A program made the translations under genes and the position numbers. Of a stretch of DNA of 59,818 bases, positions 5,405 through 49,653 are shown piece after piece. The stretch covers positions 1 through 59,818 of IMG/VR virus record IMGVR_UViG_3300020400_000007. One strand, 5' to 3'. The DNA comes from a virus (lineage: Duplodnaviria > Caudoviricetes). The notes beneath the pieces are model-generated. The model saw nothing but the letters and a program-made list of their open reading frames with translations, had not been told where the DNA came from and ran no database searches. Within the stretch, counting starts at the first letter, position 1; every line of letters starts with the position of its first letter.

Positions 5405-5430
5405 ACTAATCTCCTACCATCAAATGCGTC

Positions 5431-5452
5431 TATAAATATAGTAGTATTTATT
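5431..5452. promoter_or_regulatory. Interdigitated divergent T4-type late promoters
   Basis: TATAAATA at 5431-5438 (+, toward 5465) and AATAAATA at 5452-5445 (-, toward ugd). Confidence 0.65.
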
Positions 5453-5464
5453 GGAAATAATCTT

Positions 5465-26400: not shown

Positions 26401-29400
26401 ACTGGTGCTGGAATCATTTGTGAAAATCCATAATGTCCTTTGATAAATCTATAAATTATAACCTTAGGATCACTGTTGTTAAAGTCTGCCACTGTTGCAA
26501 TCACTTCACCAAGTTTTGCTACTGCAAAAGGATGTGCGTAATTTGTAAGATTGGCTTTATCAAATGTGCTGTCATCACTTACAACAAGATTTGTATCATT
26601 TGGTAGGTATCCAATGTAATCTATAAATGCATCTATTACTGTCCAGAACGTTGGGTTCCATGCACCTGCTACAAGATTTGTGTTTGCTTGATAAAACTGT
26701 CCATTGTACAACACAATATCATTTGTGTAATAATCTTGTGAGTCACTAAATTCGCCTTTGAAGAAATAGTTTTTACTTCTTGCCCACTCATACGTTGTGC
26801 CATCAGTATCAGTACCATGCGTGACTAAATGTATTCTACCACTGTTGCTTGTTGTATTGTTGCCAGGAGCAGATACAAACAATCTGTACAATTCGCTTTG
26901 AGTTGATTTTGTTAATTTGATTATTGTACCTAAGAATCTATTTGATTCTCTTTGTGGATTTGTGTAACCATGTTGATATGAATACAATCCTGTACCCATT
27001 CTTTCATAAACAAAATATGCACCTTCATTTGTAAATGCACTTGGTGTACCTGTTGTATCTAATTTTAATGCACTAACTTGTTTCCAATCCTTGTTTAAAG
27101 GATTTGGAGTATTAGGCGTTCTTGCAACACCATTGACTGTTCTATTGTTGAACACATAAATTTCTAATTCATCTCTAAATGTTGGAGCAGTTACAGGCAA
27201 CATTGTGCTATCTGTGTTTCTTACCACAACAAGTTTTCCTGCTATACTACCAGACATATTTGCGTTGTCTAATCTACCGGATAATCTATCAACACCTGCA
27301 CTTACACCATCTTTGATTGCAATGGTACTTGTATCACTATGTTGATTACCAAACTTAAATGATCCATTTCTAGCTTTGACATACAATCTACAATCAAGTA
27401 ACTGTTCTTGCAAATACACAACTTCTGCTGTTGCATTTGTAGACTGGTCGATAATTATATCACCTATTTGCGGAATAAAAGGATTACCATTGTTATCAAA
27501 GTTTGTAAATGTTACATCTACAAATCCGTCCCAAATATCATATACACTATGTAAAGTGTCATTCAGATAATCAAATCCTATTCCTAGTGTTGCAGGATCA
27601 AATACTGTTAAAGTGTTACCACCACGTATTTCATTTACACGCATGGTAAATGGAGTACCAGATACCAATGTGTCTGTCCAAGCCTTAGGTGCCCTGAAGA
27701 ACCATAAAGGACTCAAGTCAGGCATACCTTGTTTGTTATAGAAACTTAAATGACCAAGTCTTCCTCCTTTGGTTGGATCTGACACTTGATTCAATGCATA
27801 CACATCGTCCATTGTGTTGTAATAAATTTCTGGACTTTTGCTTTCTGCCTGTGTAATAATATCTTGTATTACAAACTGTGGTTCTGTAATTTCTTTGACT
27901 GTGGTATCAAATGCTGTTGTAACATTTATTCTCCACCAACCCCCGAAAGATGCTTGTGAGTTTGTTGGTTCTACTAATGCATATGAACCCATCGTCACTC
28001 CGCCTAATGTTGCGTTGTCATTAGCAAGGAATTGACCATTCATACCACTGATGTAAATCATTGCTTGGTTTACGTTCTGAACACTTATATGATTTACTGT
28101 TCCTATTGCAGTACTTGTACTAATTAAATCACCTACCTGTGGTGTTCTTAATAAATTATCAAAATATAATACAGCATCTACTTTTGCAACAATAGATTTG
28201 TTGCCTTCAAGTTCACTTAATACAGGCCCTTGTACTCCAAATGGAACAACACCGTTTGGATAGTTTTGTGAATACTGTTTCCAGTTAAATGCTAAAGTGT
28301 CGCCAACTGCTGAACCTTCGTACTGTGCCGTTGGTGCTCTTACAAGTATATGATCTGTAGGAACATTAAATCTGTAATTTCCTCTTATTGCATATACTAT
28401 TTGTGGGTAAGCGGTTCCAGTCCATGATGCTTTTGCAATTTGTGTTGGGTCATAAAAACTATTGAAAGTTAAAGTGCCTTGTGCCGCTGAAATAGGAAAC
28501 TGTGCCTCCCAGAAGTTTTCTTGATATTGAATAATATCTTTTTCTGCGTAACTTACATTACTTGCAAATGCACCTTTGAATTTTGTTTTTGCGTTGCTGG
28601 CATTTGGTGCACCTATTACTAACCACTTGGCATCTGAACTTAAATCTAATCCAGTTCCAAACTTACCATCGCCTGTGTATAAATTTGCAGGAGCATCTAT
28701 TGTTTGTGCATGATTGTATGTGGTGTTGTCATTTGTTCTTTGGAAAATATAAACTTTGTTAGATTCATTTGCACCAACAACCAATGTTGTGTTTCTTTCG
28801 TCTGCTCCTATTACTTTACCAAAGTTTGTGCTACTATCACCAGTTTCAACATTACTGATAACTTGTAATTCACTATGTTGTGGAGTATTTTTAAGAACAA
28901 TCCAACGATTAGCACTATCGTCATCTACCCAAAGCAATTCACCAACTTGGAATTCACCAGCAAACAATCTTGTGTTTGCTTCTTCAAGGTTGGCAACTCT
29001 TGCAGACGTAAATGTTGTAAGAAAGCCATTTGCAGTTTCTACATCTGACGTTTCACCATTGTCTGTACAAAATACAGTATCTAATTCTGATCTAATAACT
29101 TTGAATAACTTTTCAGTGTCTGCAACATCAACAACACCTATGATATCATCTTTGACATAGTTTGCTTGATTGTTAAGTTTTATTTCAACTTCATTTGTTG
29201 TAGTGTTTTTTACGACTGATAAAATTTTATCATTTGTACGTGTATATTTTAAAACGTCCCAATCATCTATTTTGCTTGTACCTGTCCAAATATAATCACC
29301 TACATTTAAAGTTGTTAAAGTTAATCCTAATATGTCATCATATTTTGCAACTGTTTGTTTAACATCTGCACTATTAACATATCCAGCAGTTTGTATATAA

Positions 29401-32400
29401 TCTTTGTCCTTGTATTTTGTAGGGAACGGTGCGTGATTATATCCATCTGGTTTTAAATATGTTTCAAAAGGTCTTTGTCTGTAAATTAAATCAGTTTCGT
29501 TTCCAGTTACAGTTTGTACTAATTCAACTGGTTGTGGACTTAATCTAAACTTTGCCTCATCTAATTTGTATTCTACTTCCTCAAAGGATTGCGATGATCC
29601 TAGTTGTCCTAGTCTTACTGCCCATTCTTCATAAAAGTTTACACTATCAGCATCTGTGTTTGATAACGCATCAAACAATTTAGTCAAACTGTTTTGTGTT
29701 CCTTTGTCTTGAATAAATCCTTGATAAAACTTATACTGACTTACATCATCATTGATAATGTTTTCTAAATATTTTCTTTTTTGATAACCAATTAAGTGTT
29801 GTGCAACTCTTTGTTGATCAATATCAAAATTGTCTGTGTCAAGATCGTAAAAGTCTGCAAATTGTTTTGCTTTGTAGTCTAAGTTTGCTTGTAAGCCCGA
29901 CTTAGGTGCTTCTGATAATCTTTGCCAATCTACATCAACAAATACTTCTTTGCCAGGTAATTTACGTTTTGCAACATAAAAGAACTCTTTGTACTTGACG
30001 GTGTCTCCGATAGCATAATCTTTCCATGCTTCCCACTCTGTGATGTTTACTTCATCATATACAAATCCAGGTATGTTTAATCCGCCAGTCCAATCATCTG
30101 TTCTGTATCCAAGTACTTTAATTCTTTCTTGTCTGTAACCAGGCTCAAGATCATAAATGAAATCACTGAACACAGTTTTGTTATCTAAAAGACAAACGTG
30201 TTCAACTTGTATTAAAGGTATCTTAACAGCATATATTCCATCAGTTGTATTCTTAGTTGTTATACCTAAATTGTTATCATTGTCTCTGAAAACATTTAAA
30301 TTAGCTTGTAATAATTTTTTACCATCTGCTTTGAATAGATTGTAACCATAGAAGCTATCAAACAAGTTGTCAGCTACATGATGTTTTTTATAAAACTGTA
30401 AATTAATTGCACCCGGACTTAAAGTTATAACACTATTGGCTTGCCAATTTTGTGTTGTCCAGAACATAAATTCTTTTGCACTCAAAGACCAATCTTCAAC
30501 TTCATTTATTTCTTTGTTGTAATTTTGAAACACAAAACCTTGTGCTTTTAAATATCTTTCATAGCCAAGTAAAAAGTCAACCACACCTTGTATTGTTTTT
30601 ATTTGTGTACCATATGCAAGTTCTACAGGCTCTTGATTTATTCCTTCATTCCATTCACGTCTAAAGAAAGCAGATCTGCCTCCTTCAACTGGTAGTTCAG
30701 CAAGTCTTACAAATTTTTCTTGTTCAAATTCAGATCCTGCAACGTGCAAGGTTTCTGTCATGTAAAAATCGTTACCAAACTTAACTACAAATCCAGGACT
30801 GTAAGTTTGTCCTTCATTCCATTGTACAAAGTCTGCACTTACGCCACCAACTCTTACTAATGGATCATCTGCAAGTGCAACTGGTGTGTAATATTTAAAA
30901 TATGGATTATCATAATTGTAACCTTTTATAATAAAGCCACTTGCTACTTTTTCTATAATTACACCACTGTATGGTACCAAGTCTACAACACTTGATTTGT
31001 TTAAAAATATTTGATAGTTTTCTTCTGGAACAAAAACATTACCTTCGTTATAAGGAGTTCTACTGTCTAAAATTAATTTAAATTTAGCTTTCTCAGTAAA
31101 TCCACCAATCTTTAATCCTAGTTGGTTAGTGATGTTTGCTATATCATCTTTGTACTGTGAATAAAATTTAACAGTTTTGCTGTTCATGTAGTCTGCTATG
31201 TAGTTTACAAGTCCAGCAGTTTGCACACGAGTTTCATCTTCTATTGTGTTTGGAAACACAATGTCTGCTAATCTTAAACGTTTATTTGTTTCAGTGTAAA
31301 TTAATTCTTTAGCAAGATTTCTTTTTATTCTTGCTCTGTCAAATCCTGCACCTATAATTTTTGTTGGTTGGTTAAGCATCCAAGCAGTTATCAATGAGAA
31401 CGGATATTCAGAACTTCTGCGCCATGCAGTTTCAGTTGGTGCTTGATCGCCAAACACAAATGGTTCTTGTGTTCTGTTGCTTATATAATTTTTAGCATAG
31501 TTACTGTCCAATGGACTTAATAAATTACCGCCATCATCAACTGGAATGTGTTTTGTAATATTTGTTCTTGCATATTTTTCATTATACACCATAGGCACAT
31601 CAGGTATTCTGTAAGCACCCTTTTCAATGTCTTGCCACAATATTTTATTTTCACTTGTATAAGGAGCAGAACCGTACACTGATTGCCACCAAGTTGGTTC
31701 TTCTGAGTATCCTAGCATTTCCCAAGGGTGAGTGTGAGGACGATCAGTATCATATGCTTCTTTGTATACAGCTCTCCAATATCCTGGATTCTGTTTGCCT
31801 GAAGGAGAACTAGTGTTGCTGTAATTGTATGTAAAGCTGTTTGCTCTTGACCAAAAAGTAAAATCAGTATAATCTGGATCGCCTACTGCTCTGTTCCATT
31901 CTACAAAATCAGCCAACATGGCTTTGTCACGTGCATTTCTAGTATAACCTGTGTATCTAGATTCACCACCTATAAAGTCATGTATGTTTAAAATATCAAC
32001 ATCATAATTAATTTTTATATTGTTGTAAATTCTTTTTTCTAATTCAATTAAAAGGTCATCTCTGAAATCATTGTAAGCAACAAATATACTTCCATCATGT
32101 CCTTGTATAACTTTTGTAGGAGTTTGATAAGTGTTGTCTACAAATATTTCTGGTTTAAATTTAGGATACAAACCAAGTTTAGTTGGTGTTGGTGGAATAT
32201 AACTTCCGTCTGTATTGTCGTATTCATATATTTCAATCAAGTCGTTAATGTTTTTAGTTTTTGTTATTGTAACAAATCCTGCAAACTCTGATTCAAATTT
32301 GTAATCAGTGCCATGTATTAACTGTACCCCATTGATATAAACGTTTACTGCCTTGTTAGTTAATTTTGTAAGATCAAAACTTGTAGCAAGTGGAAAATAT

Positions 32401-35138
32401 TGTGTTGATGTGTTTTCAACTAAATGTTCTGACTTTTTAAAAGTTCCCACTCCAAGCATATCACTGAAGTAAAAAGGCATATCATTAGTCTTGTTTTCAT
32501 TTAATTTTTGCATCACCTTGTCAAAATGAATTTTAGTTGCACCATCAAATCCTAAAGTAGTTGCTGTTTGTAAAAACATTTTTCTAAATTTACCATATTG
32601 TGATCTAGCATATCTCATTGCCAATATGATATTTGCTTGTTTGTTTGTGATGTGATAGTTTGCTAAATTAAAAGGTCCACTTGATTGTATAAACTTTGTT
32701 CCATAAGCAGACAAGTTTCCTAAATCACGTAAATTTCCTGTGCCTGGAAAAGTACCCGTAAAGTCTTCACGCATTTCAACAATGCTTGATACATGATCAT
32801 TTACTTCACCAAGTGTAAACGATCCTATATTATTGTTAAGTGGATTTCTTTCTAAGTTACTTGCAATTTCATACACACCGTTTGCATTTTTCTGTGCATC
32901 ACTTTTTGTTTTAATTACAAGTATGTCATCTTTTTTGAGATCTTTTACAAATCTTACAAATGCTGTTCCATTTAATCTATTGATTGTAAAGTCAGTGCCA
33001 CTTTTCTTTGCTTTATTGTTTACATATATTCTAGTAAACAAATCATTTAAGTCACCGCTTCTATTATAAACATCTATGGCAAAATCATTTAGCTGTGTAT
33101 CTACAACATAAATTCTTCGTACCAATTGTTTGCTGTCCTCATAACCTTTGATCCAACCAGATGCGTATGTGAATGTAGTTCTGTCTGTGTATCTTTTTAA
33201 AAGACCTACGTCTGTTTTTCCTGTAAGTGTAGCATTTAAATTTTGATATGTAAATGTGTCGTTGAGCAAATTAAAATCAAACACAATATCACCTGTGTTT
33301 ACAAGAGCTCTGTATGTTAAAGGAAATCCTAATACAGCATCATTTGTGCCTGTGCCTTTCTTGTAACTGAATAATTTTGTCCCTGTAAAAGTTGAACTTG
33401 GATAAGTTGTTTTATCAGTAAAAGCATTTCCATTGACATCAAACAAATCAAAGGTTGGGCTTTGGTTTACAGAAGTCTTGTCTTGCCCTGCCAACCACTT
33501 GGTACCGTTGTAGTACCACATTTTTCCTTTGTATTCGTCACCTTGTTTAATTAACACACATTCATTTTCTAAAGGATTTGTGTCTGTTTCTTCAACTAAA
33601 CTAATTTGTCTTACGTTGTTATGCGTAATAAATTTTACTTTAAAAATTTTACCTGCTACTCTAGTGTCTGGGTCTGCTGTAAACAAGATACGCATATTGT
33701 CGCCAACATCAACTCCATCAATGTTGTAACCTATGGAACCTTCTACTATACTAAACACATCATCTGTGAATGTGTCTAAAAGATCAACGTCTTTTTTTGC
33801 TTCGGTTCCAAAGTTAAAAAGTTTAATCTGTGATTCAAATTCTATAATTGGTCTTGCCGCTCTACCTGTTTGATTTATATCTGCAGGTTCGTCAAGTACT
33901 AATGCAACTGTTTCTAAAACAGATTTATGAAACCACTTGTTATATCTTGACCAAGGACTTCTGCTTGTTGCAGATCTGTTCTGTACAATATAATCATGTG
34001 TGTTTGCGTATGCACTTGCAGTACTAAATGGACTTCTATCAAAACCTTCTGAATCAAATGGATTAGCTCTGCTTGTTGAATAGGTTCCAGGGATCATTAC
34101 TTCCTGTTCTGATATTAATTTAATTGCATCTCCTACACCTTCTACATACCAATTGCCTTCTGCATACTTGGCTGGTGTAACTGTGCCTTGGAAATCTACT
34201 TTCATACCATTTGACATTTCATAACCATTTGTCATCTTGTATGTTTTCTTGCCAACAATTTCTGCTTCTACATCTATTTCTGTATTTTCTTGCACATCAT
34301 ATACTTGTATCAATCCACTTGCATTAATGTCATTTCCGTTTACATAATATAATGTGTCTGGGGCAAGTAAATCAACTGTGAATTCAATTACGCCTACATC
34401 TGTTGTATGTGAACTATCACTTAATCCTTCGCTGTACAAATAATCATTGTCAAGTGTACGAGCAGTTCTAATTGACAAAGGCATACCCGGAGTGTTTACT
34501 TCAAACTTGTATGTCTGTCCTCTATATAATTTTAATGTTGGATTGTTTGTTTTTCCATCAGGTGTAAACACGTATGCTTTGTTATCCAAGTTGTCTATGC
34601 TTGTAACTTTGTATGTGCTTGTAATTCCTTTTGCTTGTCCTACCACAGGAATTGCTAATGGACCATTTGGTAACCAATAGTAATCTCTAAAATTGGTAAA
34701 CTTATCCCAGTCTATATGAGGATTCCAAGAATAGTATTCTTGTTTAAAAGTTTTGCTGTCATCATCAACAGTACCATTGAATGCTTTTATTTGATTTTTT
34801 AAATCGTTGTAATCTTTATAAAAAGTTACATTGTTTAAATTATCTTTGATAACTGTTGCTGGTTCAAATTGATATTCTTCTCTTTCTGGACTTACATCAG
34901 GTACATAATTATCAGACGCCTTTCTTGCTGTTGCAATTCTTCTACCGTAGTAGGAACTGATTTTTTCAGCTACGCCTGGATTTAGTAATTGATCAAGTGT
35001 TGCACTTAAAAACTTTTTATTGTGTGCTGTGCGAAAATATTTAGGCAGATGTTCTGCACTAGTTCTTCTGTGCTGATCACTATTGCTTTGATCTCCTGCC
35101 GGTAATGGATATTCTTCTTGGTTAGCATTATAGGCCAT
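20418..35138 (-). CDS. Giant 4906-aa baseplate wedge/fibre scaffold protein (gp7-like position)
   Basis: Uninterrupted 14.7-kb ORF immediately downstream of gp6. Contains FG-GAP-like propeller repeats (FGSSVAVSDDGSMVAVGAP), ITNGGKGY..P repeats and C-terminal F.GDG...F.L beta repeats. Confidence 0.8.
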   Translation of the reverse strand: MAYNANQEEYPLPAGDQSNSDQHRRTSAEHLPKYFRTAHNKKFLSATLDQLLNPGVAEKISSYYGRRIATARKASDNYVPDVSPEREEYQFEPATVIKDNLNNVTFYKDYNDLKNQIKAFNGTVDDDSKTFKQEYYSWNPHIDWDKFTNFRDYYWLPNGPLAIPVVGQAKGITSTYKVTSIDNLDNKAYVFTPDGKTNNPTLKLYRGQTYKFEVNTPGMPLSIRTARTLDNDYLYSEGLSDSSHTTDVGVIEFTVDLLAPDTLYYVNGNDINASGLIQVYDVQENTEIDVEAEIVGKKTYKMTNGYEMSNGMKVDFQGTVTPAKYAEGNWYVEGVGDAIKLISEQEVMIPGTYSTSRANPFDSEGFDRSPFSTASAYANTHDYIVQNRSATSRSPWSRYNKWFHKSVLETVALVLDEPADINQTGRAARPIIEFESQIKLFNFGTEAKKDVDLLDTFTDDVFSIVEGSIGYNIDGVDVGDNMRILFTADPDTRVAGKIFKVKFITHNNVRQISLVEETDTNPLENECVLIKQGDEYKGKMWYYNGTKWLAGQDKTSVNQSPTFDLFDVNGNAFTDKTTYPSSTFTGTKLFSYKKGTGTNDAVLGFPLTYRALVNTGDIVFDFNLLNDTFTYQNLNATLTGKTDVGLLKRYTDRTTFTYASGWIKGYEDSKQLVRRIYVVDTQLNDFAIDVYNRSGDLNDLFTRIYVNNKAKKSGTDFTINRLNGTAFVRFVKDLKKDDILVIKTKSDAQKNANGVYEIASNLERNPLNNNIGSFTLGEVNDHVSSIVEMREDFTGTFPGTGNLRDLGNLSAYGTKFIQSSGPFNLANYHITNKQANIILAMRYARSQYGKFRKMFLQTATTLGFDGATKIHFDKVMQKLNENKTNDMPFYFSDMLGVGTFKKSEHLVENTSTQYFPLATSFDLTKLTNKAVNVYINGVQLIHGTDYKFESEFAGFVTITKTKNINDLIEIYEYDNTDGSYIPPTPTKLGLYPKFKPEIFVDNTYQTPTKVIQGHDGSIFVAYNDFRDDLLIELEKRIYNNIKINYDVDILNIHDFIGGESRYTGYTRNARDKAMLADFVEWNRAVGDPDYTDFTFWSRANSFTYNYSNTSSPSGKQNPGYWRAVYKEAYDTDRPHTHPWEMLGYSEEPTWWQSVYGSAPYTSENKILWQDIEKGAYRIPDVPMVYNEKYARTNITKHIPVDDGGNLLSPLDSNYAKNYISNRTQEPFVFGDQAPTETAWRRSSEYPFSLITAWMLNQPTKIIGAGFDRARIKRNLAKELIYTETNKRLRLADIVFPNTIEDETRVQTAGLVNYIADYMNSKTVKFYSQYKDDIANITNQLGLKIGGFTEKAKFKLILDSRTPYNEGNVFVPEENYQIFLNKSSVVDLVPYSGVIIEKVASGFIIKGYNYDNPYFKYYTPVALADDPLVRVGGVSADFVQWNEGQTYSPGFVVKFGNDFYMTETLHVAGSEFEQEKFVRLAELPVEGGRSAFFRREWNEGINQEPVELAYGTQIKTIQGVVDFLLGYERYLKAQGFVFQNYNKEINEVEDWSLSAKEFMFWTTQNWQANSVITLSPGAINLQFYKKHHVADNLFDSFYGYNLFKADGKKLLQANLNVFRDNDNNLGITTKNTTDGIYAVKIPLIQVEHVCLLDNKTVFSDFIYDLEPGYRQERIKVLGYRTDDWTGGLNIPGFVYDEVNITEWEAWKDYAIGDTVKYKEFFYVAKRKLPGKEVFVDVDWQRLSEAPKSGLQANLDYKAKQFADFYDLDTDNFDIDQQRVAQHLIGYQKRKYLENIINDDVSQYKFYQGFIQDKGTQNSLTKLFDALSNTDADSVNFYEEWAVRLGQLGSSQSFEEVEYKLDEAKFRLSPQPVELVQTVTGNETDLIYRQRPFETYLKPDGYNHAPFPTKYKDKDYIQTAGYVNSADVKQTVAKYDDILGLTLTTLNVGDYIWTGTSKIDDWDVLKYTRTNDKILSVVKNTTTNEVEIKLNNQANYVKDDIIGVVDVADTEKLFKVIRSELDTVFCTDNGETSDVETANGFLTTFTSARVANLEEANTRLFAGEFQVGELLWVDDDSANRWIVLKNTPQHSELQVISNVETGDSSTNFGKVIGADERNTTLVVGANESNKVYIFQRTNDNTTYNHAQTIDAPANLYTGDGKFGTGLDLSSDAKWLVIGAPNASNAKTKFKGAFASNVSYAEKDIIQYQENFWEAQFPISAAQGTLTFNSFYDPTQIAKASWTGTAYPQIVYAIRGNYRFNVPTDHILVRAPTAQYEGSAVGDTLAFNWKQYSQNYPNGVVPFGVQGPVLSELEGNKSIVAKVDAVLYFDNLLRTPQVGDLISTSTAIGTVNHISVQNVNQAMIYISGMNGQFLANDNATLGGVTMGSYALVEPTNSQASFGGWWRINVTTAFDTTVKEITEPQFVIQDIITQAESKSPEIYYNTMDDVYALNQVSDPTKGGRLGHLSFYNKQGMPDLSPLWFFRAPKAWTDTLVSGTPFTMRVNEIRGGNTLTVFDPATLGIGFDYLNDTLHSVYDIWDGFVDVTFTNFDNNGNPFIPQIGDIIIDQSTNATAEVVYLQEQLLDCRLYVKARNGSFKFGNQHSDTSTIAIKDGVSAGVDRLSGRLDNANMSGSIAGKLVVVRNTDSTMLPVTAPTFRDELEIYVFNNRTVNGVARTPNTPNPLNKDWKQVSALKLDTTGTPSAFTNEGAYFVYERMGTGLYSYQHGYTNPQRESNRFLGTIIKLTKSTQSELYRLFVSAPGNNTTSNSGRIHLVTHGTDTDGTTYEWARSKNYFFKGEFSDSQDYYTNDIVLYNGQFYQANTNLVAGAWNPTFWTVIDAFIDYIGYLPNDTNLVVSDDSTFDKANLTNYAHPFAVAKLGEVIATVADFNNSDPKVIIYRFIKGHYGFSQMIPAPVAGIGFGSSVAVSDDGSMVAVGAPLADDRSNDNGKVFVYTNNLGTFELTQTLYSPEKDVAERFGAAIDFNGNDLVISSKGGDLVTSTTFDNITTTFDNNLTQFEKVNADSGQVFMYQKVRNKLLYAEKFNYKNPATERFGEFLLFNENHVYVPMPELSITDNNFIGTLIDFKRTRDVMPWATLHSPMDQVDLSKFKGIFIYEINENPVAQAVDYIDPIQGKIAGAAEEELTFKTHYDPAVYTNGTPSQNTVIDADNYWDTKWVGRLWWDLSTAKFVNPYQGNIIYNTANWNKLFTGASIDVYEWVESTLTPTQWSQQADTEEGLTKGISGTPKDLNTFVQVQKFDNVAKSFFNKYYYWVKNKKIIPHFEFRKTSAYDVAQLIQDPAGQGQRFIAMYSNSRFGLYNCESLVSGPENAINFRYWTIENKEINAHNQYQLLTEGLDTSRPNKDLERKWYDSLIGVDVNERAVPDTILSPKQAYGILDRPRQGMFKNKTEALKQTVERANRTLKQNLIVDEFDLSKFLSKDPTPTLLSRKFDKAIDTYAELSTVGVSNISPAVLTPVFENGRLARVDITNGGKGYKTIPTVEFGNTGNGSGAEITLTMDAHGTITSAVVKNTGNDYGPKTTLEVRKYSVLVTVDESVNSRWSIYAYQENSKTWARTTSSSYDVTQWWTYEDWYDVGYSEFTETDFLIDFSYELDSLDDAVGDIVKISTIGSGGWLLLEKISNDGSDYTTKYKTIGRENGTIQLSNSLFDSANSNIGYDGLSYDTSFYDNQPTRELRIILQSLRDDIFINDLAVEYNKLFFASLRYVFSEQANVDWAFKTSFIKAKHNAGDLQQKITFQNDSLPSYEDFVKETKPYKTKIREYISNYTNTDETASGITDFDIPPAYSSDDGKIVPASLKVQNDLIVGQDASITTYPNKYWADCVGFEVKQINIKTGGTLYLETPLIKFVGGGGTGAVAKATLGAGGTIKYITVTNPGKGYLSAPTVTVEGTQDPAGVKAVVSAQLGNSKVRSNHIVSKFDRTTGNFLITTLTEVENFTGTGSKTQYDLKFPMDLRTTTITVTVAGIEALQSEYTISNLADNTKSYARSKGRVTFTEPPANNSAIVVNYSKAIDMLQAQDRINMFYDPTTGMLGKDVSQLMDGIDYGGVQVKSFTFGAGTGWSSEPYYTTTYDTYDNTYEDEVFTLDGSTNVFTLAKPLESGVVYNVYKNGVRIDDPQYDGSTVSNNPNAVMESITGAGQTFIQLDETKVPTVANDVIVIRKSTSDGSFIPDPDGYDTLLQGGDLVYQTARGLSAEEIVVDGDSFVTPLTSKGPEELVPGQVLDTLDIKVYDRTGDGSSILHSYNYLGDGNNKDFDINFVPMSQSDVWIKVNGNILADTLFEVDYQNKKIKLTNAPGLNEQVHIITMSNNGEKILDIDTFIGDGSTAQFVVPVKYKNTLSHFLTVDGKTVNVTLAETDNTYSGQKGMSVFKLGTAPLNGAVIQYAIFDSASTSFSQITTDTFTGDGNTTSFTLAQAPFTQEPLEQNVIVKVDNNILNAGYNQRFVVSATREYTLKDYQIPKAGIDANKVRVFLNGEEITITQSWSWNTFNATVNLFSDVGVAGDILNVYIRNDGDYSFGFFDGNGLWNATPNKIYFDNAPANGSAVTVYQFSKHDVRKIERINLDVVTRNPITVGTSNYTEYHQLTNGIIKLRTLAIDAEYVWIVVNGTLLTPSVDYYLEEDRQTVRVVTDINANDVVELIHFSNNTIVPKFGYRQFKDMLNRTHFKRLGDDVEYTLAEDLNWYDTKIFVTNVDSLPIPNKAKQMPGVLFIGGERIEYYLKEDGALRQLRRGTLGTGVKTKHSQGSVVLDQSRDQTVPYKDETMTLNFVSDGSTKAYTLDFVPQDPTGSGTVMDLVEVFVGGRRLRKNAISSFDPTTNLDSPEADTTLPAEFSMTAGSTTLTLTEQPPINTKIMVVRRIGKRWTDPGTPLRLAENNIGRFLRNKEVALPK

Positions 35139-44744: not shown

Positions 44745-45575
44745 ATGAAGAGAATTAATTATCTCAATAATAGAGATATACTGGCGGAGATACATAAGTC
44801 AAAAAACACGTTTTGTAGTTATACAGACGATGATTTCGCCCAATATGATATAATTTTACCTAGTATTGAAAAGGTTAACATAAGAACCATAGCAGATGCC
44901 AAAAGAAGCCGTGCAAAACGCATGAGTTTGGCGGATTATGAGAAAAGAAAAGCAGATGGTGAACGTGTCAAGCAGGCAGATTGCGCCGTAGACTACAGAA
45001 AAATAGCAAAAACTGACGTTGTTTTCCGAATTATGACCTATGATCATATTCCAGAAGAAAAAGGTAGAAAGAAAAATCCTAAAAACGTAGCAGACACAAA
45101 GACAAAATTAAACTTTCCCCCATTCCAACATTACAAGTTTGATGACAACGACAAGTTGGTGTGTGTAGGCAAAAGCCATTGGGAAGGCGGAATGGAGAAC
45201 GGCAGTTTCAACAAGGCTCACGGCATGGCAACCAACAAACTTGCTATGATGTGGATGAAACTATGTGAACGATATGCAACAAGAGGTAATGTAAGAGGTT
45301 ATACTTACAACGATGAAATGAAAGGACAAGCTATTCTACAACTTACACAGATTGGTTTGCAATTTGATGAATCAAAGTCAAACAATCCTTTTGCATATTA
45401 CACAGCCGCAGTGACTAATTCGTTTGTAAGAATTATTAATATTGAAAAACGTAACCAGAACATACGTGATGACATATTAGAAATGAATCACATGAATCCA
45501 TCTTTTACAAGACAGAACCAAGGTGTTTGGGAACGTCAAGCAAAAGAGGCATACAACGAGGACAAAAAAGATTAA
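44745..45575 (+). CDS. gp55: Late-transcription sigma factor, T4 gp55-like
   Basis: NYLNNRDIL, GYTYNDEM, FDESKSNNPFAYYT..SFVRIINIEK; ATG 44745 with GGAG RBS; synteny with gp47/gp46. Confidence 0.88.
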   Translation: MKRINYLNNRDILAEIHKSKNTFCSYTDDDFAQYDIILPSIEKVNIRTIADAKRSRAKRMSLADYEKRKADGERVKQADCAVDYRKIAKTDVVFRIMTYDHIPEEKGRKKNPKNVADTKTKLNFPPFQHYKFDDNDKLVCVGKSHWEGGMENGSFNKAHGMATNKLAMMWMKLCERYATRGNVRGYTYNDEMKGQAILQLTQIGLQFDESKSNNPFAYYTAAVTNSFVRIINIEKRNQNIRDDILEMNHMNPSFTRQNQGVWERQAKEAYNEDKKD

Positions 45576-46591
45576 TGTTTAAGAAAGCGGCAGTATTTAC
45601 AGACATTCACTTTGGACTGAAGTCTAATTCTAAGGTCCATAATGATGACTGTGAAGAATTTGTTGATTGGTATATAGAACAAGCAAAAGAAAACGGTTGC
45701 GAAACTGGTATCTTCTGTGGTGACTGGCATCACAATAGAAACAGTTTAAATATGCTCACCATGGACGCAACCATAAGAAGTCTTGAAAAACTTGGAAAAG
45801 CATTTGAAAAGTTTTACTTCTTTCCTGGCAACCACGACTTGTATTACAAAGACAAGAGAGATATCAACTCAATTGACTTTGCAAGGCATATCCCAGGCAT
45901 CACTATGGTCAATGAGATGATGACCGAAGGCGATGTTACTTTAATCCCATGGCTAGTTGGCGATGAATGGAAGAAAATTCCTAAAATAAAAAGCAAATAC
46001 ATATTTGGACACTTCGAACTTCCAAACTTTTATATGAATGCTATGGTTCAGATGCCTGACACAGGCGAACTACAAGCTGATCATTTTAAAAATCAAGAAT
46101 ACGTGTTCAGTGGACACTTCCATAAACGCCAAGTCAAGGGACCTATTCATTACATTGGTAACGCATTGCCACACAATTACGCTGATGCCTGGGATGATGA
46201 ACGTGGTATGATGGTGTTGGAACATGGTGGAGAACCACAATACATCAACTGGTGGAACTGTCCTAAGTATAGAACTGTGAAACTATCAAGACTGCTTGAT
46301 GAAAAAGAAACATTGTTAAAAAGCAAGATGTATTTGAGAGTAACACTTGACTTGCCTATTAGTTATGAAGAAGCAAACTTTATAAAAGAAACATTTATCA
46401 ATCAATACAAGTGTAGAGAGATATCACTAATACCAAATACACAGGAAGAAGAAATTAATTCAGACATAGACATTACAAAATTTGAAAGTGTTGATGAAAT
46501 AGTGGCAAAAGAAATAGAAGCAATAGAGTCAGAACAGTTTAACAAAAGCAAACTGCTACAGATATACAGAGATTTGAACAAAGATGATTAG
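45575..46591 (+). CDS. gp47: Recombination endonuclease subunit, Mre11/SbcD-like
   Basis: DIHFG, GDWHH, GNHD, GHFE, SGHFH phosphoesterase motifs; ATG 45575 overlaps the gp55 stop. Confidence 0.93.
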   Translation: MFKKAAVFTDIHFGLKSNSKVHNDDCEEFVDWYIEQAKENGCETGIFCGDWHHNRNSLNMLTMDATIRSLEKLGKAFEKFYFFPGNHDLYYKDKRDINSIDFARHIPGITMVNEMMTEGDVTLIPWLVGDEWKKIPKIKSKYIFGHFELPNFYMNAMVQMPDTGELQADHFKNQEYVFSGHFHKRQVKGPIHYIGNALPHNYADAWDDERGMMVLEHGGEPQYINWWNCPKYRTVKLSRLLDEKETLLKSKMYLRVTLDLPISYEEANFIKETFINQYKCREISLIPNTQEEEINSDIDITKFESVDEIVAKEIEAIESEQFNKSKLLQIYRDLNKDD

Positions 46592-48356
46592 AATACAGGA
46601 CTTAACAGTTAAGAATTTTATGAGTGTAGGTAACACTACACAGGCAGTCGACTTCAACAAGCAACAACTTACATTGGTGTTAGGTGAGAACTTGGACCAA
46701 GGTGGTGATGACAGTGGGTCAAGAAACGGTACAGGTAAGACCACAATCATCAATGCACTGAGTTATGCGTTATATGGACAGGCACTAACCAACATAAGAC
46801 GTGATAACTTGGTCAATAAAACAAACAACAAAGGTATGTTGGTGACACTTGCCTTTCAAAAAGGTGGTAAAGAATACAGAATAGAAAGAGGACGTAAACC
46901 TAACACACTTAAATTTTACATAGATCAGAAAGAACAAGAACTTACAGATGAAAGTCAAGGTGATTCACGTAAAACGCAAGAGGATATTAATGACTTGTTA
47001 GGTATGAGTCATGATATGTTCAAGCATATTGTGGCACTTAACACTTACACAGAGCCTTTCTTAGCACTAAAGCCCAATGATCAACGTGCTATAATAGAAC
47101 AACTACTTGGTATTACAATACTTTCTGAAAAAGCTGACTTGTTAAGAGAAGCAACAAAGATTACCAGAGATAGACTCACTGAAGAAAACGCAAAAATACA
47201 AGCAATCACAAACAGCAACGATAAGATCAAAGAAAACATTGACAGATTGCACAGCAGGAAGAAGGCTTGGATTGCACAAAACAAACAAGACAGAGATAAA
47301 CTAGACAAAGCCATACGTGAACTTGAACAACTTGACATTGACAGTGAACTTGAAGATCATGAAAAACTAAAAACATGGACTGAAGATAGCAAACATCTTG
47401 CAAACTTAACAAAAGAACGTGCTACTGTTGAACGTGCATTAGAACAAGCAGATAATAACGTAAACAAACTAGGTAAAGAGCTTGATGAACTTGAAACTGC
47501 CAAGTGTTATGCTTGTGGACAAGAACTGCACGATGACAAACTTGAAGAAATGAAGGACAAGTTACAAAAGGATTATGGTGATGCAACTGTCTATCAATTA
47601 AGCATGGCAGAAAAAATGCAAAAAGTTGAAAAACTAATTGAGGAAATTGGCACATTAGATTCTAAGCCAAACACATTTTATGAAACTGCCAAAGAAGCAT
47701 ATCAACACAGAAGTAATGTTGACAGTTTGAAACAAAGTCTCAAAGATAAAACAGATGAACTGGATCCATACTCCGAACAAATTGATGATTTAGAAAAAAC
47801 TGCAATACAAGAAATCAATTGGGACACAGTTAACGAACTTACTGATACAAAAGAACATCAAGACTTCTTGTATAAACTATTAACCAACAAAGATTCGTTT
47901 ATTAGAAAGAAAATTATTGATCAAAATCTTGCATACTTGAATAATAGACTTACACATTATTTGGATAGGCTACAACTGCCACACTCTGTTGTGTTTAAAA
48001 ATGACTTATCTGTAGAAATTACACAGCTAGGACAGGATTTAGACTTTGACAACTTATCAAGAGGTGAAAGAAACAGACTTATACTAGGATTAAGTTGGGC
48101 ATTTAGAGATGTATGGGAAAGTTTATATCAAAACATCAATTTACTGTTTATTGATGAGCTTGTTGATAGTGGTATGGATGCAAATGGTGTAGAAAATGCC
48201 ATTGGTGTATTGAAGAAAATGGGTAGAGAACGACAGAAGAACATTTATCTGATATCGCACAAAGAAGAATTAGCAAGTCGTGTTACAAACGTGTTGAAAG
48301 TAATCAAAGAAAATGGATTTACTTCATATGATAATGATGTAGAGGTAATGACATAA
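46584..48356 (+). CDS. gp46: Recombination ATPase, Rad50/SbcC-like
   Basis: Walker A NGTGKT, coiled coil with zinc hook CYAC, signature LSRGE, Walker B LFIDE, ISH. Confidence 0.95.
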   Translation: MIRIQDLTVKNFMSVGNTTQAVDFNKQQLTLVLGENLDQGGDDSGSRNGTGKTTIINALSYALYGQALTNIRRDNLVNKTNNKGMLVTLAFQKGGKEYRIERGRKPNTLKFYIDQKEQELTDESQGDSRKTQEDINDLLGMSHDMFKHIVALNTYTEPFLALKPNDQRAIIEQLLGITILSEKADLLREATKITRDRLTEENAKIQAITNSNDKIKENIDRLHSRKKAWIAQNKQDRDKLDKAIRELEQLDIDSELEDHEKLKTWTEDSKHLANLTKERATVERALEQADNNVNKLGKELDELETAKCYACGQELHDDKLEEMKDKLQKDYGDATVYQLSMAEKMQKVEKLIEEIGTLDSKPNTFYETAKEAYQHRSNVDSLKQSLKDKTDELDPYSEQIDDLEKTAIQEINWDTVNELTDTKEHQDFLYKLLTNKDSFIRKKIIDQNLAYLNNRLTHYLDRLQLPHSVVFKNDLSVEITQLGQDLDFDNLSRGERNRLILGLSWAFRDVWESLYQNINLLFIDELVDSGMDANGVENAIGVLKKMGRERQKNIYLISHKEELASRVTNVLKVIKENGFTSYDNDVEVMT

Positions 48357-48556
48357 TGGATGATACACACGACAAACTAACAAAAGCATATCTTGAGTAT
48401 TACAAAGCCAACGAAGCATGGGAAATACGCAAGAGTGAACGCACAAAACGTTCAGCAAGAAAATGGTTGAGTGAAATACGTAGCTTGGCCACAAACCGCA
48501 GAAAAGAAATAATAGAAGAATACAAAGCCAAAAAAGACGATCCAGAAAAAGATTAA
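48356..48556 (+). CDS. Small basic helical protein (Hc1/histone-H1-like N-domain resemblance)
   Basis: SARKWLSEIRSLATNRRKEI motif; coupled to gp46 (TAATG). Confidence 0.55.
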   Translation: MDDTHDKLTKAYLEYYKANEAWEIRKSERTKRSARKWLSEIRSLATNRRKEIIEEYKAKKDDPEKD

Positions 48557-48573
48557 GAGTAAGTATCTTAATA

Positions 48574-48996
48574 ATGCACTGGACATATCAAGACAAAATC
48601 GTAGAATCATTACCTGAAGACTGTGAAGCATTTGTGTATCTTATCACAAATACAACCAATGGTATGAAATATGTCGGTAAAAAACTAGCAAAATTCAGAA
48701 AGACAAGGCCACCTCTTAAAGGCAAGATAAACAAACGTAGAAGCAAAGTTGAAAGTGACTGGAGAGACTACTGGGGATCATCAGATCACTTGCAATCAGA
48801 CGTAGAAAAATTAGGCACAGATAAATTTACCAGAGAAATATTACATTATTGTCCAAGCAGAGGCGTAGCAAGTTATCTAGAGGCTAGGGAACAGTTTGAA
48901 CGCAGAGTGTTAGAAACAGATGAATACTACAATGGCATTATAAACGTGAGAGTAGGCGGATCTAAATTACTTAAAGAAGCACTCAAAGGCAAATAA
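48574..48996 (+). CDS. Minimal GIY-YIG-family nuclease (catalytic domain only)
   Basis: FVYLITN..GMKYVGKK, YWGSS, FTREIL, YLEAREQ, YYN; only 140 aa. Confidence 0.75.
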   Translation: MHWTYQDKIVESLPEDCEAFVYLITNTTNGMKYVGKKLAKFRKTRPPLKGKINKRRSKVESDWRDYWGSSDHLQSDVEKLGTDKFTREILHYCPSRGVASYLEAREQFERRVLETDEYYNGIINVRVGGSKLLKEALKGK

Positions 48997-48999
48997 CAA

Positions 49000-49360
49000 A
49001 TTCTATATAGCAACATTGTTTGGTCGGGATAGCTCGACTCACCTTGAGGTCATACGGATCTTATGACTAGAACTGGTGCGTTGCAAGGTTAATACTAACT
49101 TAGGTATTAAAAGATCGTGGCTCTGAGAAAAAGCAACCACAACGTTAACACATTTTGCTTAACTAGGGTGTGTTAGTGTTCCGTAACTTATGCGAAGGCT
49201 GAAGTAGGGGGTTGACGGGTTACCGCCTCCACGCAGAAATGCAATCTTCTTAGTTAAGATGGTAAGCTCATCTTACATGATGGCAACATATCTTTGCCCG
49301 GAGACGGGCGAAGTATGGCTCAACTATCTACATGATAGCAGTTGCTTCGCAACTTATCAT
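49000..49360 (+). ncRNA. Putative large structured non-coding RNA of unknown family
   Basis: No credible ORF, raised GC and >=10 consecutive helices. G-U wobble pairs work only on the + strand. GNRA tetraloops (GAAA, GAGA) and a potential pseudoknot are present. Ends are approximate. Confidence 0.7.
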
Positions 49361-49371
49361 ATACAATATAA

Positions 49372-49415
49372 TGTGTTGAGCGACAGCGATAACACAGATG
49401 AGCTTTAGCTCATCT
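49372..49415. terminator. Hairpins between convergent transcripts (possible terminator or 3' processing stems)
   Basis: TGTGTT..AACACA (49372-49396) and perfect AGATGAGCT-TT-AGCTCATCT (49396-49415) next to the stop of the minus-strand gene; no clear U-tract. Confidence 0.45.
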
Positions 49416-49416
49416 A

Positions 49417-49611
49417 CTAATGCAATTCGGGATTACGTCCAAGTCGAAATGCATCTTTATCATAAACAACAATCTCCTTGACTTCGTAACTTTTGCCAGG
49501 ATTACAATCGATCAGTGTTTGTATGACGGAAAACGCTTCTCCATCAGAATCACACTGAATAACGATCTTGTCGTCGCCGCACTCTACGATATTATATTTC
49601 GTCGATGGCAT
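49417..49611 (-). CDS. Small hypothetical protein (64 aa)
   Basis: MPSTKYNIVEC...LGRNPELH; ATG at 49611 lies just downstream of CTAAATA (49617-49623). The longer track ORF extends antisense into 49676..50257. Confidence 0.6.
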   Translation of the reverse strand: MPSTKYNIVECGDDKIVIQCDSDGEAFSVIQTLIDCNPGKSYEVKEIVVYDKDAFRLGRNPELH

Positions 49612-49645
49612 AAGAGTATTTAGAGTATATAGATGATCAATTATG

Positions 49646-49653
49646 TATAAATA
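49646..49653 (+). promoter_or_regulatory. T4-type late promoter
   Basis: TATAAATA, then AGGAG RBS and ATG 49676. Confidence 0.75.

What the first reader, a model, noticed from the sequence alone, without database searches (positions are those of the whole stretch)
48574..49415. Minimal GIY-YIG nuclease followed by a ~400-nt highly structured, unassigned RNA: candidate RNA-associated nuclease system
Seen: the only long intergenic gap in this densely packed window folds into consecutive helices. These are GTCGGG/CTCGAC (49023-38); ACCTTG/CAAGGT (49041-89) enclosing GTCATA/TATGAC; TTAATAC/GTATTAA (49089-110); GTGG/CCAC (49117-40); a 16-bp stem at 49141-56/49165-80 with 5 G-U pairs, which points to an RNA on the + strand; GGGGGT/GCCTCC (49207-30); GCA-GAAA-TGC (49233-42); CTTTGCCCG-GAGA-CGGGCGAAG (49292-313); and GTTGC/GCAAC (49341-53). 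The loop sequence CTTAACT (49158-64) is complementary to AGTTAAG (49252-58), a possible pseudoknot or kissing contact. The RNA starts right after the stop of a co-oriented 140-aa GIY-YIG protein. Known: GIY-YIG homing enzymes such as I-TevI get specificity from extra C-terminal DNA-binding domains, which this protein lacks. Inference: the RNA may be a scaffold or guide for the nuclease, a ribozyme, or a replication/packaging RNA. I could not match it to tRNA, tmRNA, RNase P or group I/II introns.
Basis: partly seen in the sequence, partly recalled or inferred. Interest (0 to 1): 0.87.

Follow-up and report, generated by a model that had tools for sequence, protein, structure and literature searches.

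The report
Knotted phage RNA after nuclease gene
The gene-free stretch behind a small DNA-cutting enzyme gene of this uncultured marine T4-like phage encodes a real, intricately folded RNA of about 400 bases whose job is unknown, and nothing found here shows that it guides the enzyme.

Summary
Window 49005-49416 (+) is a non-coding, strongly structured RNA. Covariation supports it on 31 relatives: 63 of 115 pairs change on both sides, against 42.9 in shuffles, with 0 of 500 shuffles as high.

There is no Rfam, tRNA or tmRNA match. In two sister loci the 5' domain is Rfam's Polynucleobacter-1 (RF01718), so that entry is one piece of a longer RNA.

The RNA follows a SegE-type, catalytic-domain-only GIY-YIG gene in 71 of 73 related viral contigs, inside a gp47-gp46-GIY block.

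The coupling looks like synteny, not a proven machine:
- Six cultured phages have the nuclease but no 400-nt gap behind it.
- Phage Moby has a core-like RNA 51 kb from its nuclease gene.
- One lineage has two genes inserted between nuclease and RNA.
- No guide-like segment exists.

Two short boxes flanking a GNRA hairpin are identical at their variable positions in 84 of 84 distinct RNAs.

Best reading (inferred): a stable scaffold or decoy RNA that offers two equal sites to one co-evolving partner.

This scan has reported the same family on other genomes.

The parts
48356..48556 (+). orf66: small Arg/Lys-rich ORF between gp46 and the nuclease gene (context; possible RNA binder, untested)
   Evidence: ORF list. 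No Pfam or PHROG family. Syntenic in most near relatives at 41-91% identity, but absent where gp46 abuts the GIY gene, e.g. L047 and L081.
48574..48996 (+). GIY-YIG nuclease gene, SegE-type catalytic domain only (140 aa)
   Evidence: PF19835 E 8.7e-34, 116.8 bits, residues 3-123. phrog_447 E 4e-37. Invariant F20 V21 Y22, Y33, G35, E103, N120 in 9 family members. 77-96% identical in 80 loci where gp46 is 52-95%.
49010..49084 (+). 5' three-way domain: P1 49010-14/49080-84, P2 49022-28/49033-39, P3 49040-43/49075-78, P4 49048-54/49062-68
   Evidence: P1 and P2 are 100% paired. P3 has 4 of 4 and P4 has 7 of 7 pairs with changes on both sides. In other lineages this domain is replaced by other 5' domains, including RF01718 in L058 and L048.
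49089..49110 (+). P5 hairpin TTAATAC/GTATTAA with conserved CTAAC loop
   Evidence: 84% paired and 2 of 6 pairs compensatory on A1. The alignment is shifted in clade B of A2.
49111..49140 (+). AAGAT junction and P6 hairpin (GTGG/CCAC) with a near-invariant 16-nt loop CTCTGAGAAAAAGCAA
   Evidence: P6 has 3 of 4 pairs compensatory. Loop letters are invariant in 26 diverse sequences and partly kept in phage Moby.
49141..49180 (+). P7: 16-bp stem with 5 G-U pairs. Its loop 49158-64 forms pseudoknot PK1 with 49252-58.
   Evidence: P7 has 11 of 16 pairs compensatory. PK1 has 6 of 7 compensatory and 94.5% paired.
49183..49258 (+). Knotted core: PK2 49183-88/49218-23, P8 49201-04/49246-49, P9 49207-11/49226-30, P10 49232-35/49240-43, and the 3' strand of PK1 at 49252-58
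   Evidence: PK2 4 of 6, P8 4 of 4, P9 2 of 5, P10 3 of 4 pairs compensatory. PK2, P8 and P9 are 100% paired. PK2 and P8 were first seen in my column-pair scan.
49266..49284 (+). Box 1 (GCTCATCTTACATGATGGC)
   Evidence: Its variable positions are always the same as in box 2: 84 of 84 distinct RNAs, 10 box types. The hairpin CATC/GATG is 88.7% paired but has no compensatory change.
49292..49313 (+). P12: 9-bp hairpin with GNRA loop (GAGA), followed by conserved GTATGGCTCAAC
   Evidence: 96% paired. The loop varies GAGA/GCAA/GGTA. The hairpin plus AAGTATG recurs in L208 and, by eye, in Moby.
49324..49338 (+). Box 2 (CTATCTACATGATAG)
   Evidence: See box 1. 86.4% paired as a hairpin, 1 of 5 pairs compensatory.
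49341..49395 (+). P14 variable hairpin (49341-53), AT-rich variable linker, and P15 (49373-77/49391-95) with conserved loop GAGCGACAGCGAT
   Evidence: Hairpins are kept with different sequences in relatives (alignments). Counts are low because of alignment shifts. The loop motif TTGAGCG.. is shared across subtypes.
49396..49415 (+). Terminal 8-bp hairpin AGATGAGC/GCTCATCT at the convergent junction with the minus-strand ORF
   Evidence: 4 of 8 pairs compensatory. No T-run, and not called by the terminator scan.
49417..49611 (-). Convergent 64-aa ORF of no known family (context; marks the 3' limit of the RNA)
   Evidence: Present in near relatives only.

Best explanation
Window 49005-49416 (+) is a gene for a stable, non-coding, doubly pseudoknotted RNA of about 400 nt. 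It is a member of a large, mostly uncatalogued family carried by uncultured marine T4-like phages.

The RNA is modular:
- a swappable 5' domain;
- a knotted core with an invariant hairpin loop;
- a GNRA hairpin flanked by two short boxes;
- a conserved 3' tail hairpin.

It lies at the end of the gp47-gp46-orf66-GIY transcription unit and is probably made as the 3' part of that transcript or just behind it.

The GIY-YIG protein is a conserved core nuclease of T4-like phages. In this lineage it happens to be the RNA's fixed neighbour.

Mechanism (inferred, not shown): the RNA acts in trans as a scaffold or decoy. It offers two equivalent sites, the twin boxes, to two copies of one partner. That partner could be a dimeric protein or a repeated nucleic-acid sequence, and its specificity co-evolves with the boxes.

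Shown: RNA-level structure, strand, family, linkage statistics, and concerted box variation.
Inferred: transcription limits, trans action, and the nature of the partner.
For: Structure. 81.4% of 3357 cells are paired against 72.6% in shuffles. 63 of 115 pairs change on both sides against 42.9. The covariation score is 0.287 against 0.149, with 0 of 500 shuffles as high, and slid controls reach at most 0.109.

Strand and coding. 372 G-U cells against 122 A-C cells. There is no conserved ORF: the window's 49-aa ORF shrinks to 19 and 35 aa in 94%-identical relatives.

Family.
- 71 of 73 loci carry the RNA.
- The core model R1 hits 46 of 80 loci, while the 5' domain and tail are found in more, which shows modularity.
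- RF01718 forms the 5' domain in 2 of 20 diverse loci tested.

Independence from the nuclease.
- Six cultured phages have the GIY gene and only a 0-206 nt gap behind it.
- Five of the six give no significant R1 or R2 hit genome-wide.
- Moby has an R1 hit (20.5 bits, E 2e-4) in a 530-nt gene-poor gap, 51 kb from its GIY gene.
- L104/L198 carry two inserted ORFs between GIY and RNA.

Twin boxes. 84 of 84 distinct RNAs have matched variable positions across 10 box types. No co-varying complement was found inside the RNA.

Expression hint. In 4 metatranscriptome runs of one study, contigs 90-95% alike run from the GIY coding sequence into the RNA, for example 48219-49321 and 48285-49472.
Against: - No direct evidence of a discrete stable RNA. 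The runs are contigs, so they give no ends, strand or level, and DNA carry-over cannot be excluded.
- No promoter or canonical terminator was found by the simple scans.
- The partner is unknown.
- The box hairpins themselves lack compensatory support.
- GIY-RNA adjacency is near-universal in this lineage: 72 of 72 assessable true motif hits have the gene within 2 kb upstream. GIY is also more conserved than its neighbours. Both fit a functional tie as well as they fit synteny.
- R1 and R2 see only the subtypes they were built from, so 'no RNA' in the cultured phages is not proven.
- The Moby match rests on one model plus features seen by eye. R2 does not hit it.
Confidence: 0.5

Rival explanations
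1. The RNA and the GIY-YIG protein form a ribonucleoprotein. The twin boxes would each recruit one catalytic-domain-only nuclease monomer, making a two-site cutter. The RNA would supply the targeting or scaffolding that the missing DNA-binding domain cannot.
For: - Direct adjacency in 71 of 73 and 71 of 80 loci.
- The protein ends 17 residues after the catalytic domain.
- It is 77-96% identical where gp46 is 52-95%.
- Two equal boxes suit two copies of one protein.
- Moby holds both a GIY gene and a core-like RNA, though they lie apart.
Against: - Family members in Melnitz, S-ShM2, B3, ACP17 and phi17:2 have no detectable RNA, and show the same basic insert and the same invariant residues.
- Two genes are inserted between the partners in L104/L198.
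- There is no unpaired hypervariable (guide-like) segment.
- A test for identical proteins paired with different boxes was uninformative: the highest identity between box types is 85%.
Confidence: 0.12
2. A cis-acting 3' untranslated element of the gp47-gp46-GIY message. It would protect the transcript from 3' exonucleases, or bind a regulator that sets the level of a potentially toxic nuclease.
For: - Pairing starts at or within 13 nt of the stop codon.
- RNA-library contigs bridge the coding sequence and the RNA.
- The RNA ends in a hairpin at a convergent gene junction.
Against: - About 400 nt with two pseudoknots and invariant loops is far more than stabilisers need.
- The RNA stays intact when moved behind other genes (L104/L198) or when placed elsewhere (Moby).
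- The nuclease family is expressed without it in other phages.
Confidence: 0.12
3. A self-acting RNA: either a ribozyme, or a homo-oligomeric 'ornate' RNA assembly of the GOLLD/ROOL kind. In this reading the GNRA loop, the invariant loop and the boxes make RNA-RNA contacts.
For: - Size, pseudoknots, a GNRA tetraloop and strictly conserved unpaired stretches.
- Carried by phages, as GOLLD and ROOL often are. I saw only the abstract of PMC12286853 in the search listing.
Against: - No homology to any Rfam ribozyme or ornate RNA.
- Identical, mostly non-palindromic boxes cannot pair with each other (reasoning).
- No cleavage or assembly data exist.
Confidence: 0.1
4. An origin-of-replication transcript. 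The structured RNA would form or prime an R-loop at its own gene, next to the recombination genes gp46/gp47.
For: - Position beside the recombination nuclease genes.
- An AT-rich variable linker at 49354-72.
- An earlier scan note proposes this for a sister locus; I did not test it.
Against: - T4 origins, as I recall them, need a promoter and an unwinding element, not a conserved folded RNA.
- Selection acts on RNA pairing with G-U pairs throughout.
- No data on replication were available.
Confidence: 0.06
5. Not an RNA at all: a DNA-level element (protein-binding repeats, cruciforms) or a decayed coding region.
For: Both strands fold better than shuffles.
Against: - Compensatory changes in 63 of 115 pairs.
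- A 3:1 excess of G-U over A-C cells on the + strand.
- Pseudoknot covariation.
- No conserved reading frame.
Confidence: 0.02

Closest known systems
Polynucleobacter-1 RNA motif (Rfam RF01718; listed in a table of Weinberg et al. 2010, PMC2864571, passage seen)
   Same: In sister loci L058 (87.1 bits) and L048 (59.4 bits), RF01718 occupies the first ~140 nt after the GIY stop codon. It is followed by a twin-box and tail region homologous to the window's RNA. RF01718 is therefore one 5' domain variant of the same RNA family. Its function is also unknown.
   Different: The window's own RNA has a different 5' domain and gives no RF01718 hit even at E up to 10. RF01718 models 141 nt, not the roughly 400-nt RNA.
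GOLLD (RF01998), ROOL (RF03087) and OLE: large ornate bacterial and phage RNAs (Kretsch et al. 2025, PMC12286853; abstract seen)
   Same: Several hundred nucleotides, many helices and pseudoknots, phage-borne, no known function. Alike in kind only.
   Different: No sequence or structure-model match. It is smaller, and oligomerisation has not been tested.
Two-piece tmRNA (ssrA) of the related phage Melnitz (Buchholz et al. 2022, PMC9004378; passages read)
   Same: A 453-nt structured RNA gene in a related marine T4-like phage. Similar size, with pseudoknots.
   Different: ARAGORN and Rfam find no tmRNA here. It sits in a different genomic place. I saw no tRNA-like end or tag frame.
Lambdoid phage nut boxB hairpins bound by the N protein's arginine-rich motif (recalled, not tested)
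   Same: Two RNA hairpins per phage whose loops match each other and differ between phages in step with a phage protein. This is the closest known logic for the twin boxes.
   Different: No antitermination context, no N-like protein identified, and the boxes lie 55 nt apart inside one large RNA.
OMEGA and CRISPR RNA-guided nucleases (IscB, TnpB, Cas9/12)
   Same: A nuclease gene next to a long structured RNA on the same strand.
   Different: GIY-YIG fold, no guide segment, and no transposon ends seen. The nuclease family also exists widely without the RNA.

Membership tests
GIY-YIG nuclease superfamily, SegE-type domain (Pfam PF19835) | Profile match above the curated cut-off | tested here: met
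   116.8 bits against a cut-off of 25, residues 3-123. The general PF01541 model is below its cut-off (18.7 against 22.6).
GIY-YIG nuclease superfamily, SegE-type domain (Pfam PF19835) | GIY and YIG motifs and the conserved Glu and Asn (their roles are recalled from I-TevI work) | tested here: met
   F20-V21-Y22, Y33-x-G35, E103 and N120 are invariant in 9 family members. Catalysis itself is not testable here.
GIY-YIG homing endonucleases (I-TevI, SegA-E) | C-terminal DNA-binding domain joined to the catalytic domain | tested here: not met
   The protein is 140 aa and ends 17 residues after the domain. phrog_447 members are about 148 aa.
GIY-YIG homing endonucleases (I-TevI, SegA-E) | Sporadic, mobile distribution among close relatives | tested here: not met
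   Present at the same syntenic place in all 80 loci, and more conserved than gp46. Found in 498 cultured phage records.
Rfam RF01718 Polynucleobacter-1 | Covariance-model match at the gathering score | tested here: not met
   No hit in the window at gathering score or at E up to 10. Met only by sister loci L058 and L048.
tmRNA (one- or two-piece) | tRNA-like domain, tag reading frame, ARAGORN or Rfam detection | tested here: not met
   ARAGORN found 0 genes and there is no Rfam tmRNA hit.
Group I/II introns, RNase P RNA, known ribozymes, GOLLD/ROOL/OLE | Rfam covariance-model match | tested here: not met
   0 matches among 4227 families at E up to 10 on 48900-49500.
RNA-guided nuclease systems (OMEGA/CRISPR-like) | Nuclease family obligately accompanied by its RNA | tested here: not met
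   Six cultured phages carry the nuclease with a 0-206 nt gap behind it. Five of the six have no significant R1 or R2 hit.
RNA-guided nuclease systems (OMEGA/CRISPR-like) | Unpaired hypervariable guide segment | tested here: not met
   The variable stretches are compensated stems (P4, P7, P14) or an AT-rich linker of varying length.
Twin-box phage RNA family (uncatalogued; this scan's working name) | GNRA hairpin flanked by two boxes that are identical at their variable positions | tested here: met
   Window boxes at 49266-84 and 49324-38. 84 of 84 distinct RNAs are matched.
Twin-box phage RNA family (uncatalogued; this scan's working name) | Doubly pseudoknotted core upstream of the boxes | tested here: met
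   PK1 has 6 of 7 and PK2 4 of 6 compensatory pairs. R1 scores the window at 135.9 bits.

The most novel reading that the evidence does not exclude
The twin boxes are docking sites for two monomers of the neighbouring catalytic-domain-only GIY-YIG nuclease. The RNA would then assemble, and perhaps aim, a two-headed cutter. That would be an RNA-scaffolded GIY-YIG nuclease, a kind of ribonucleoprotein not described so far. The near-universal adjacency and the unusual conservation of the protein allow this reading. The RNA-free family members and the lack of a guide segment argue against it.
Probability: 0.1. Interest if true: 0.92.

Novelty: new variant of a known kind. Interest (0 to 1): 0.62.

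Why it matters
- A large, intricately folded RNA is fixed in a big group of uncultured marine T4-like phages.
- My paper searches found no description beyond a table line for Polynucleobacter-1. That Rfam entry turns out to be only one 5' domain of a roughly 400-nt RNA.
- Two boxes that may change but must stay alike are a clear, testable signature of a co-evolving partner. Finding that partner would define a new phage RNA function.
- It also corrects a tempting over-reading. A nuclease gene beside a structured RNA is not by itself an RNA-guided nuclease.

Tried and rejected
Searches that found nothing or only chance hits:
- blastn of the RNA and of two sister RNAs against cultured phages gave no match, or only chance fragments.
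- A pattern drawn from RF01718 found 2 stretches. One is L058's own contig; the other (L088) lies inside a capsid/portal-like ORF and is a chance hit.
- The invariant-loop pattern in 185,579 prokaryote genomes gave 5 stretches. Only L208, a MAG contig with a 60%-identical GIY gene plus the RNA, is real.
- L105 and L194 from the box-motif scan are GC-rich chance matches. I dropped them before the counts.

tmRNA reading: rejected.

Earlier scan notes say the family occurs in E. coli giant phages and that other nucleases replace GIY.
- With models R1 and R2, phage 121Q gave only E 0.07-0.6 hits inside coding genes, so I could not reproduce the first claim on that one phage.
- I did not test the second claim.

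Search for a sequence that co-varies with the boxes: mutual information over 24 clade-C RNAs found only box-to-box signal and lineage markers. The box and its complement are not enriched in the window.

Test of GIY as box partner: no pair of loci with different boxes shares more than 85% GIY identity, so the test says nothing.

Other attempts:
- A single-sequence AlphaFold model of the nuclease was too poor to use (mean pLDDT 42.4). No fold search was made.
- R2 does not hit the Moby locus.
- The promoter and terminator scans gave nothing usable.
- Metatranscriptome contigs cover little of 49480-49647, but a part without cover proves nothing.

Supplements of the Melnitz and Weinberg papers were not seen. 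They may list tmRNA-negative contigs or Polynucleobacter-1 contexts that bear on these claims.
Full report
WHAT IS THERE

The window is a 59.8-kb fragment of an IMG/VR virus record, with estimated completeness 16%. It carries T4-like genes. On the + strand lie:
- a gp47-like Mre11 nuclease (45527-46591);
- a gp46-like Rad50 ATPase (46584-48356; AAA_23, SMC_N and zinc-hook hits);
- a 66-aa Arg/Lys-rich ORF (48356-48556);
- a 140-aa ORF (48574-48996).

They are followed by 420 nt without a conserved ORF, then a convergent 64-aa ORF at 49417-49611.

The 140-aa protein is a SegE-type GIY-YIG catalytic domain and little else: PF19835, E 8.7e-34, residues 3-123, and phrog_447.

IS IT AN RNA?

The + strand folds to -132.4 kcal/mol (z -4.59) and the - strand to -113.4 (z -4.31). 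Rfam gives nothing at gathering scores for the whole window, nor at E up to 10 for 48900-49500. ARAGORN finds no tRNA or tmRNA.

The best 80 were kept. A profile of the RNA hits directly behind the nuclease stop codon in 71 of the 73 loci that hold at least 300 nt downstream. Seven loci were too short and were left out. L052 and L064 gave no hit.

On a 31-sequence alignment (A2) I counted a structure of 19 helices and 115 pairs:

| Measure | Observed | Shuffled | Shuffles as high |
|---|---|---|---|
| Cells paired | 81.4% | 72.6% | 0 of 500 |
| Pairs changed on both sides | 63 | 42.9 | 0 of 500 |
| Covariation score | 0.287 | 0.149 | 0 of 500 |

Slid controls reach at most 0.109.

- A second pseudoknot (49183-88 with 49218-23; 4 of 6) and a closing helix (49201-04 with 49246-49; 4 of 4) emerged from a column-pair scan.
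P1 (GCAAC/GTTGC) plus P3 (CACC/GGTG, 4 of 4) replace it.
- G-U cells outnumber A-C cells 372 to 122, so the + strand is the RNA strand.
- The window's 49-aa ORF inside the region is cut to 19 and 35 aa in 94%-identical relatives.

So it is a non-coding RNA.

FAMILY AND KNOWN RELATIVES

The family is modular. The core model R1, built from 26 diverse sequences, scores the window at 135.9 bits. It hits 46 of the 80 loci, while the 5' domain and the box and tail regions are found in more.

In 2 of 20 diverse loci tested (L058, L048), the first ~140 nt after the stop codon match Rfam's Polynucleobacter-1, at 87.1 and 59.4 bits. Twin-box and tail sequence homologous to the window follows. That Rfam entry is therefore a fragment of a longer RNA. 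The paper that lists it gives only a table line, and no other paper in the library names it.

The related cultured phage Melnitz carries a two-piece tmRNA (passages of PMC9004378), but at another place. Nothing here resembles it.

TWIN BOXES

A 9-bp GNRA hairpin (49292-313) is flanked by two similar modules that contain short boxes: 49266-84 and 49324-38. Across 84 distinct RNAs the variable box positions fall into 10 types:
- ACATGA, GCATGA, AGATAA, GCATAA and ACATAA in the near clades;
- AT-C, GT-C, GT-G, GA-G and TT-C in a remote clade.

In 84 of 84 RNAs both boxes carry the same type. The boxes cannot pair with each other, because they are identical and mostly not palindromic. I found no co-varying complement within 570 nt, and no enrichment of the box or its complement in the window. 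Earlier notes of this scan had seen the same identity rule. I re-derived it here.

IS THE NUCLEASE THE RNA'S PARTNER?

For a partnership:
- Adjacency is near-universal in this lineage.
- Of 80 loci retrieved through an RNA motif alone, 71 have the nuclease gene directly upstream. 7 lack enough upstream DNA, 1 is a chance hit (L105), and 1 (L104, also seen as L198) has the gene 1.5 kb upstream with two ORFs (343 and 142 aa) inserted.
- The protein is 77-96% identical where gp46 is 52-95%.

Against a partnership:
- The family is in 498 cultured phage records, mostly T4-like cyanophages.
- In Melnitz, S-ShM2, Moby, B3, ACP17 and phi17:2, the gene is followed by 148, 52, 206, 111, 0 and 0 nt.
- Their proteins share the Lys/Arg-rich insert and all invariant residues with the window's protein.
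- R1 and R2 find nothing significant in five of these genomes.
- In Moby, R1 hits 60215-60350 (20.5 bits, E 2e-4; 6.6e-6 within the locus). The hit lies in a 530-nt gap that holds only a 44-aa predicted ORF, 51 kb from the GIY gene.
- By eye, that Moby region also has a loop ACGATCT matched by AGATCGT downstream, and a P12-like hairpin followed by AAGTATG. R2 does not hit it, so I call it a probable distant homologue of the core only.
- That region is 98.9-100% conserved in 16 Menderavirus records.
- No guide-like segment exists.

The check for identical nucleases paired with different boxes was uninformative, since the highest identity between box types is 85%.

EXPRESSION

Twenty runs hold part of the stretch, 19 of them on record as RNA. 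I laid four, all from one study. Their contigs, 90-95% alike, run from gp46/orf66 through the GIY gene into the RNA:
- 48219-49321;
- 48285-49472;
- 48878-49347, seen twice.

These are contigs from RNA libraries. They show presence and continuity, not ends, strand or level, and DNA carry-over is possible.

READING

Shown:
- a real, + strand, doubly knotted, modular non-coding RNA;
- membership of a large uncatalogued family;
- a fixed place behind a core GIY-YIG nuclease gene in this lineage;
- two boxes under an identity constraint.

Inferred: it acts in trans as a scaffold or decoy that binds two copies of one co-evolving partner. I recall the lambdoid N-boxB case as the nearest known logic. 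This is a resemblance, not a test.

Rivals, in order of my odds:
- an RNP with the GIY protein (0.12);
- a cis-acting 3' UTR element (0.12);
- a self-acting ribozyme or oligomeric ornate RNA (0.10);
- an origin transcript (0.06);
- a DNA element (0.02).

NOVELTY AND SCORE

My searches found no paper that describes this RNA. Rfam holds only a sister 5' domain. It is a new variant within the known kind 'large structured phage RNAs of unknown function'.

This scan has reported the same family on other genomes. I could not reproduce one of those notes' claims, presence in E. coli giant phages, on phage 121Q.

Noticed in passing
L058:3426-3564 and L048:3492-3636: Rfam's Polynucleobacter-1 (RF01718) is here the 5' domain of a longer RNA that continues into twin boxes and a conserved tail. 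The Rfam family seems to describe a fragment.
   Followed up: partly
L104 (oriented) about 4297-5756; also L198: Two ORFs are inserted between the GIY gene and the RNA. One is 343 aa and looks like an IMP dehydrogenase/GMP reductase-type barrel by eye. The other is 142 aa. This is the only lineage seen where nuclease and RNA are not adjacent.
   Followed up: partly
L216:2531-3065 (Stenotrophomonas phage Moby 60031-60564): A 530-nt gene-poor gap holds a probable distant homologue of the RNA core. The annotated 44-aa gp078 inside it is probably not a gene. The stretch is 98.9-100% conserved in 16 Menderavirus records and mostly unannotated.
   Followed up: partly
L208 (contig of a MAG labelled Legionellales bacterium): A 23-kb contig in a bacterial MAG carries a 60%-identical GIY gene plus the RNA. 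It is probably a phage contig binned with the MAG.
   Followed up: no
window 48356-48556: orf66 is a small, fast-evolving (41-91% identity), Arg/Lys-rich helical-looking protein of no family, wedged between gp46 and the nuclease gene. It is a candidate RNA binder, but it is absent in lineages where gp46 abuts the GIY gene.
   Followed up: partly
L095:217-330 and L104 upstream of the RNA: In the remote clade, the RNA is preceded by repeated CATGGC / CTGGCA motifs in an extra 5' stretch of 60-150 nt. Their meaning is unknown.
   Followed up: no
window 20418-35138 (-): A single 4906-aa ORF. Together with the 16% completeness estimate, it suggests a very large (jumbo-size) phage genome.
   Followed up: no
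L001 (Melnitz) 4959-5399 and L084 (S-ShM2) 3471-3920: In Melnitz and in cyanophage S-ShM2 the GIY gene lies downstream of nrdA/nrdB, not behind gp46. The gene has moved between core neighbourhoods during T4-like phage evolution. Many records annotate it as 'NAD synthetase', which the Pfam match contradicts.
   Followed up: partly
window 49130-49134 and 49010-49014: GCAAC occurs both as the 5' strand of P1 and in the invariant P6 loop. Both copies could pair with GTTGC at 49080-84. Likewise, GCGAAG occurs at 49192-97 and 49308-13, both complementary to CTTTGC at 49292-97. These may be alternative pairings and are unresolved.
   Followed up: no
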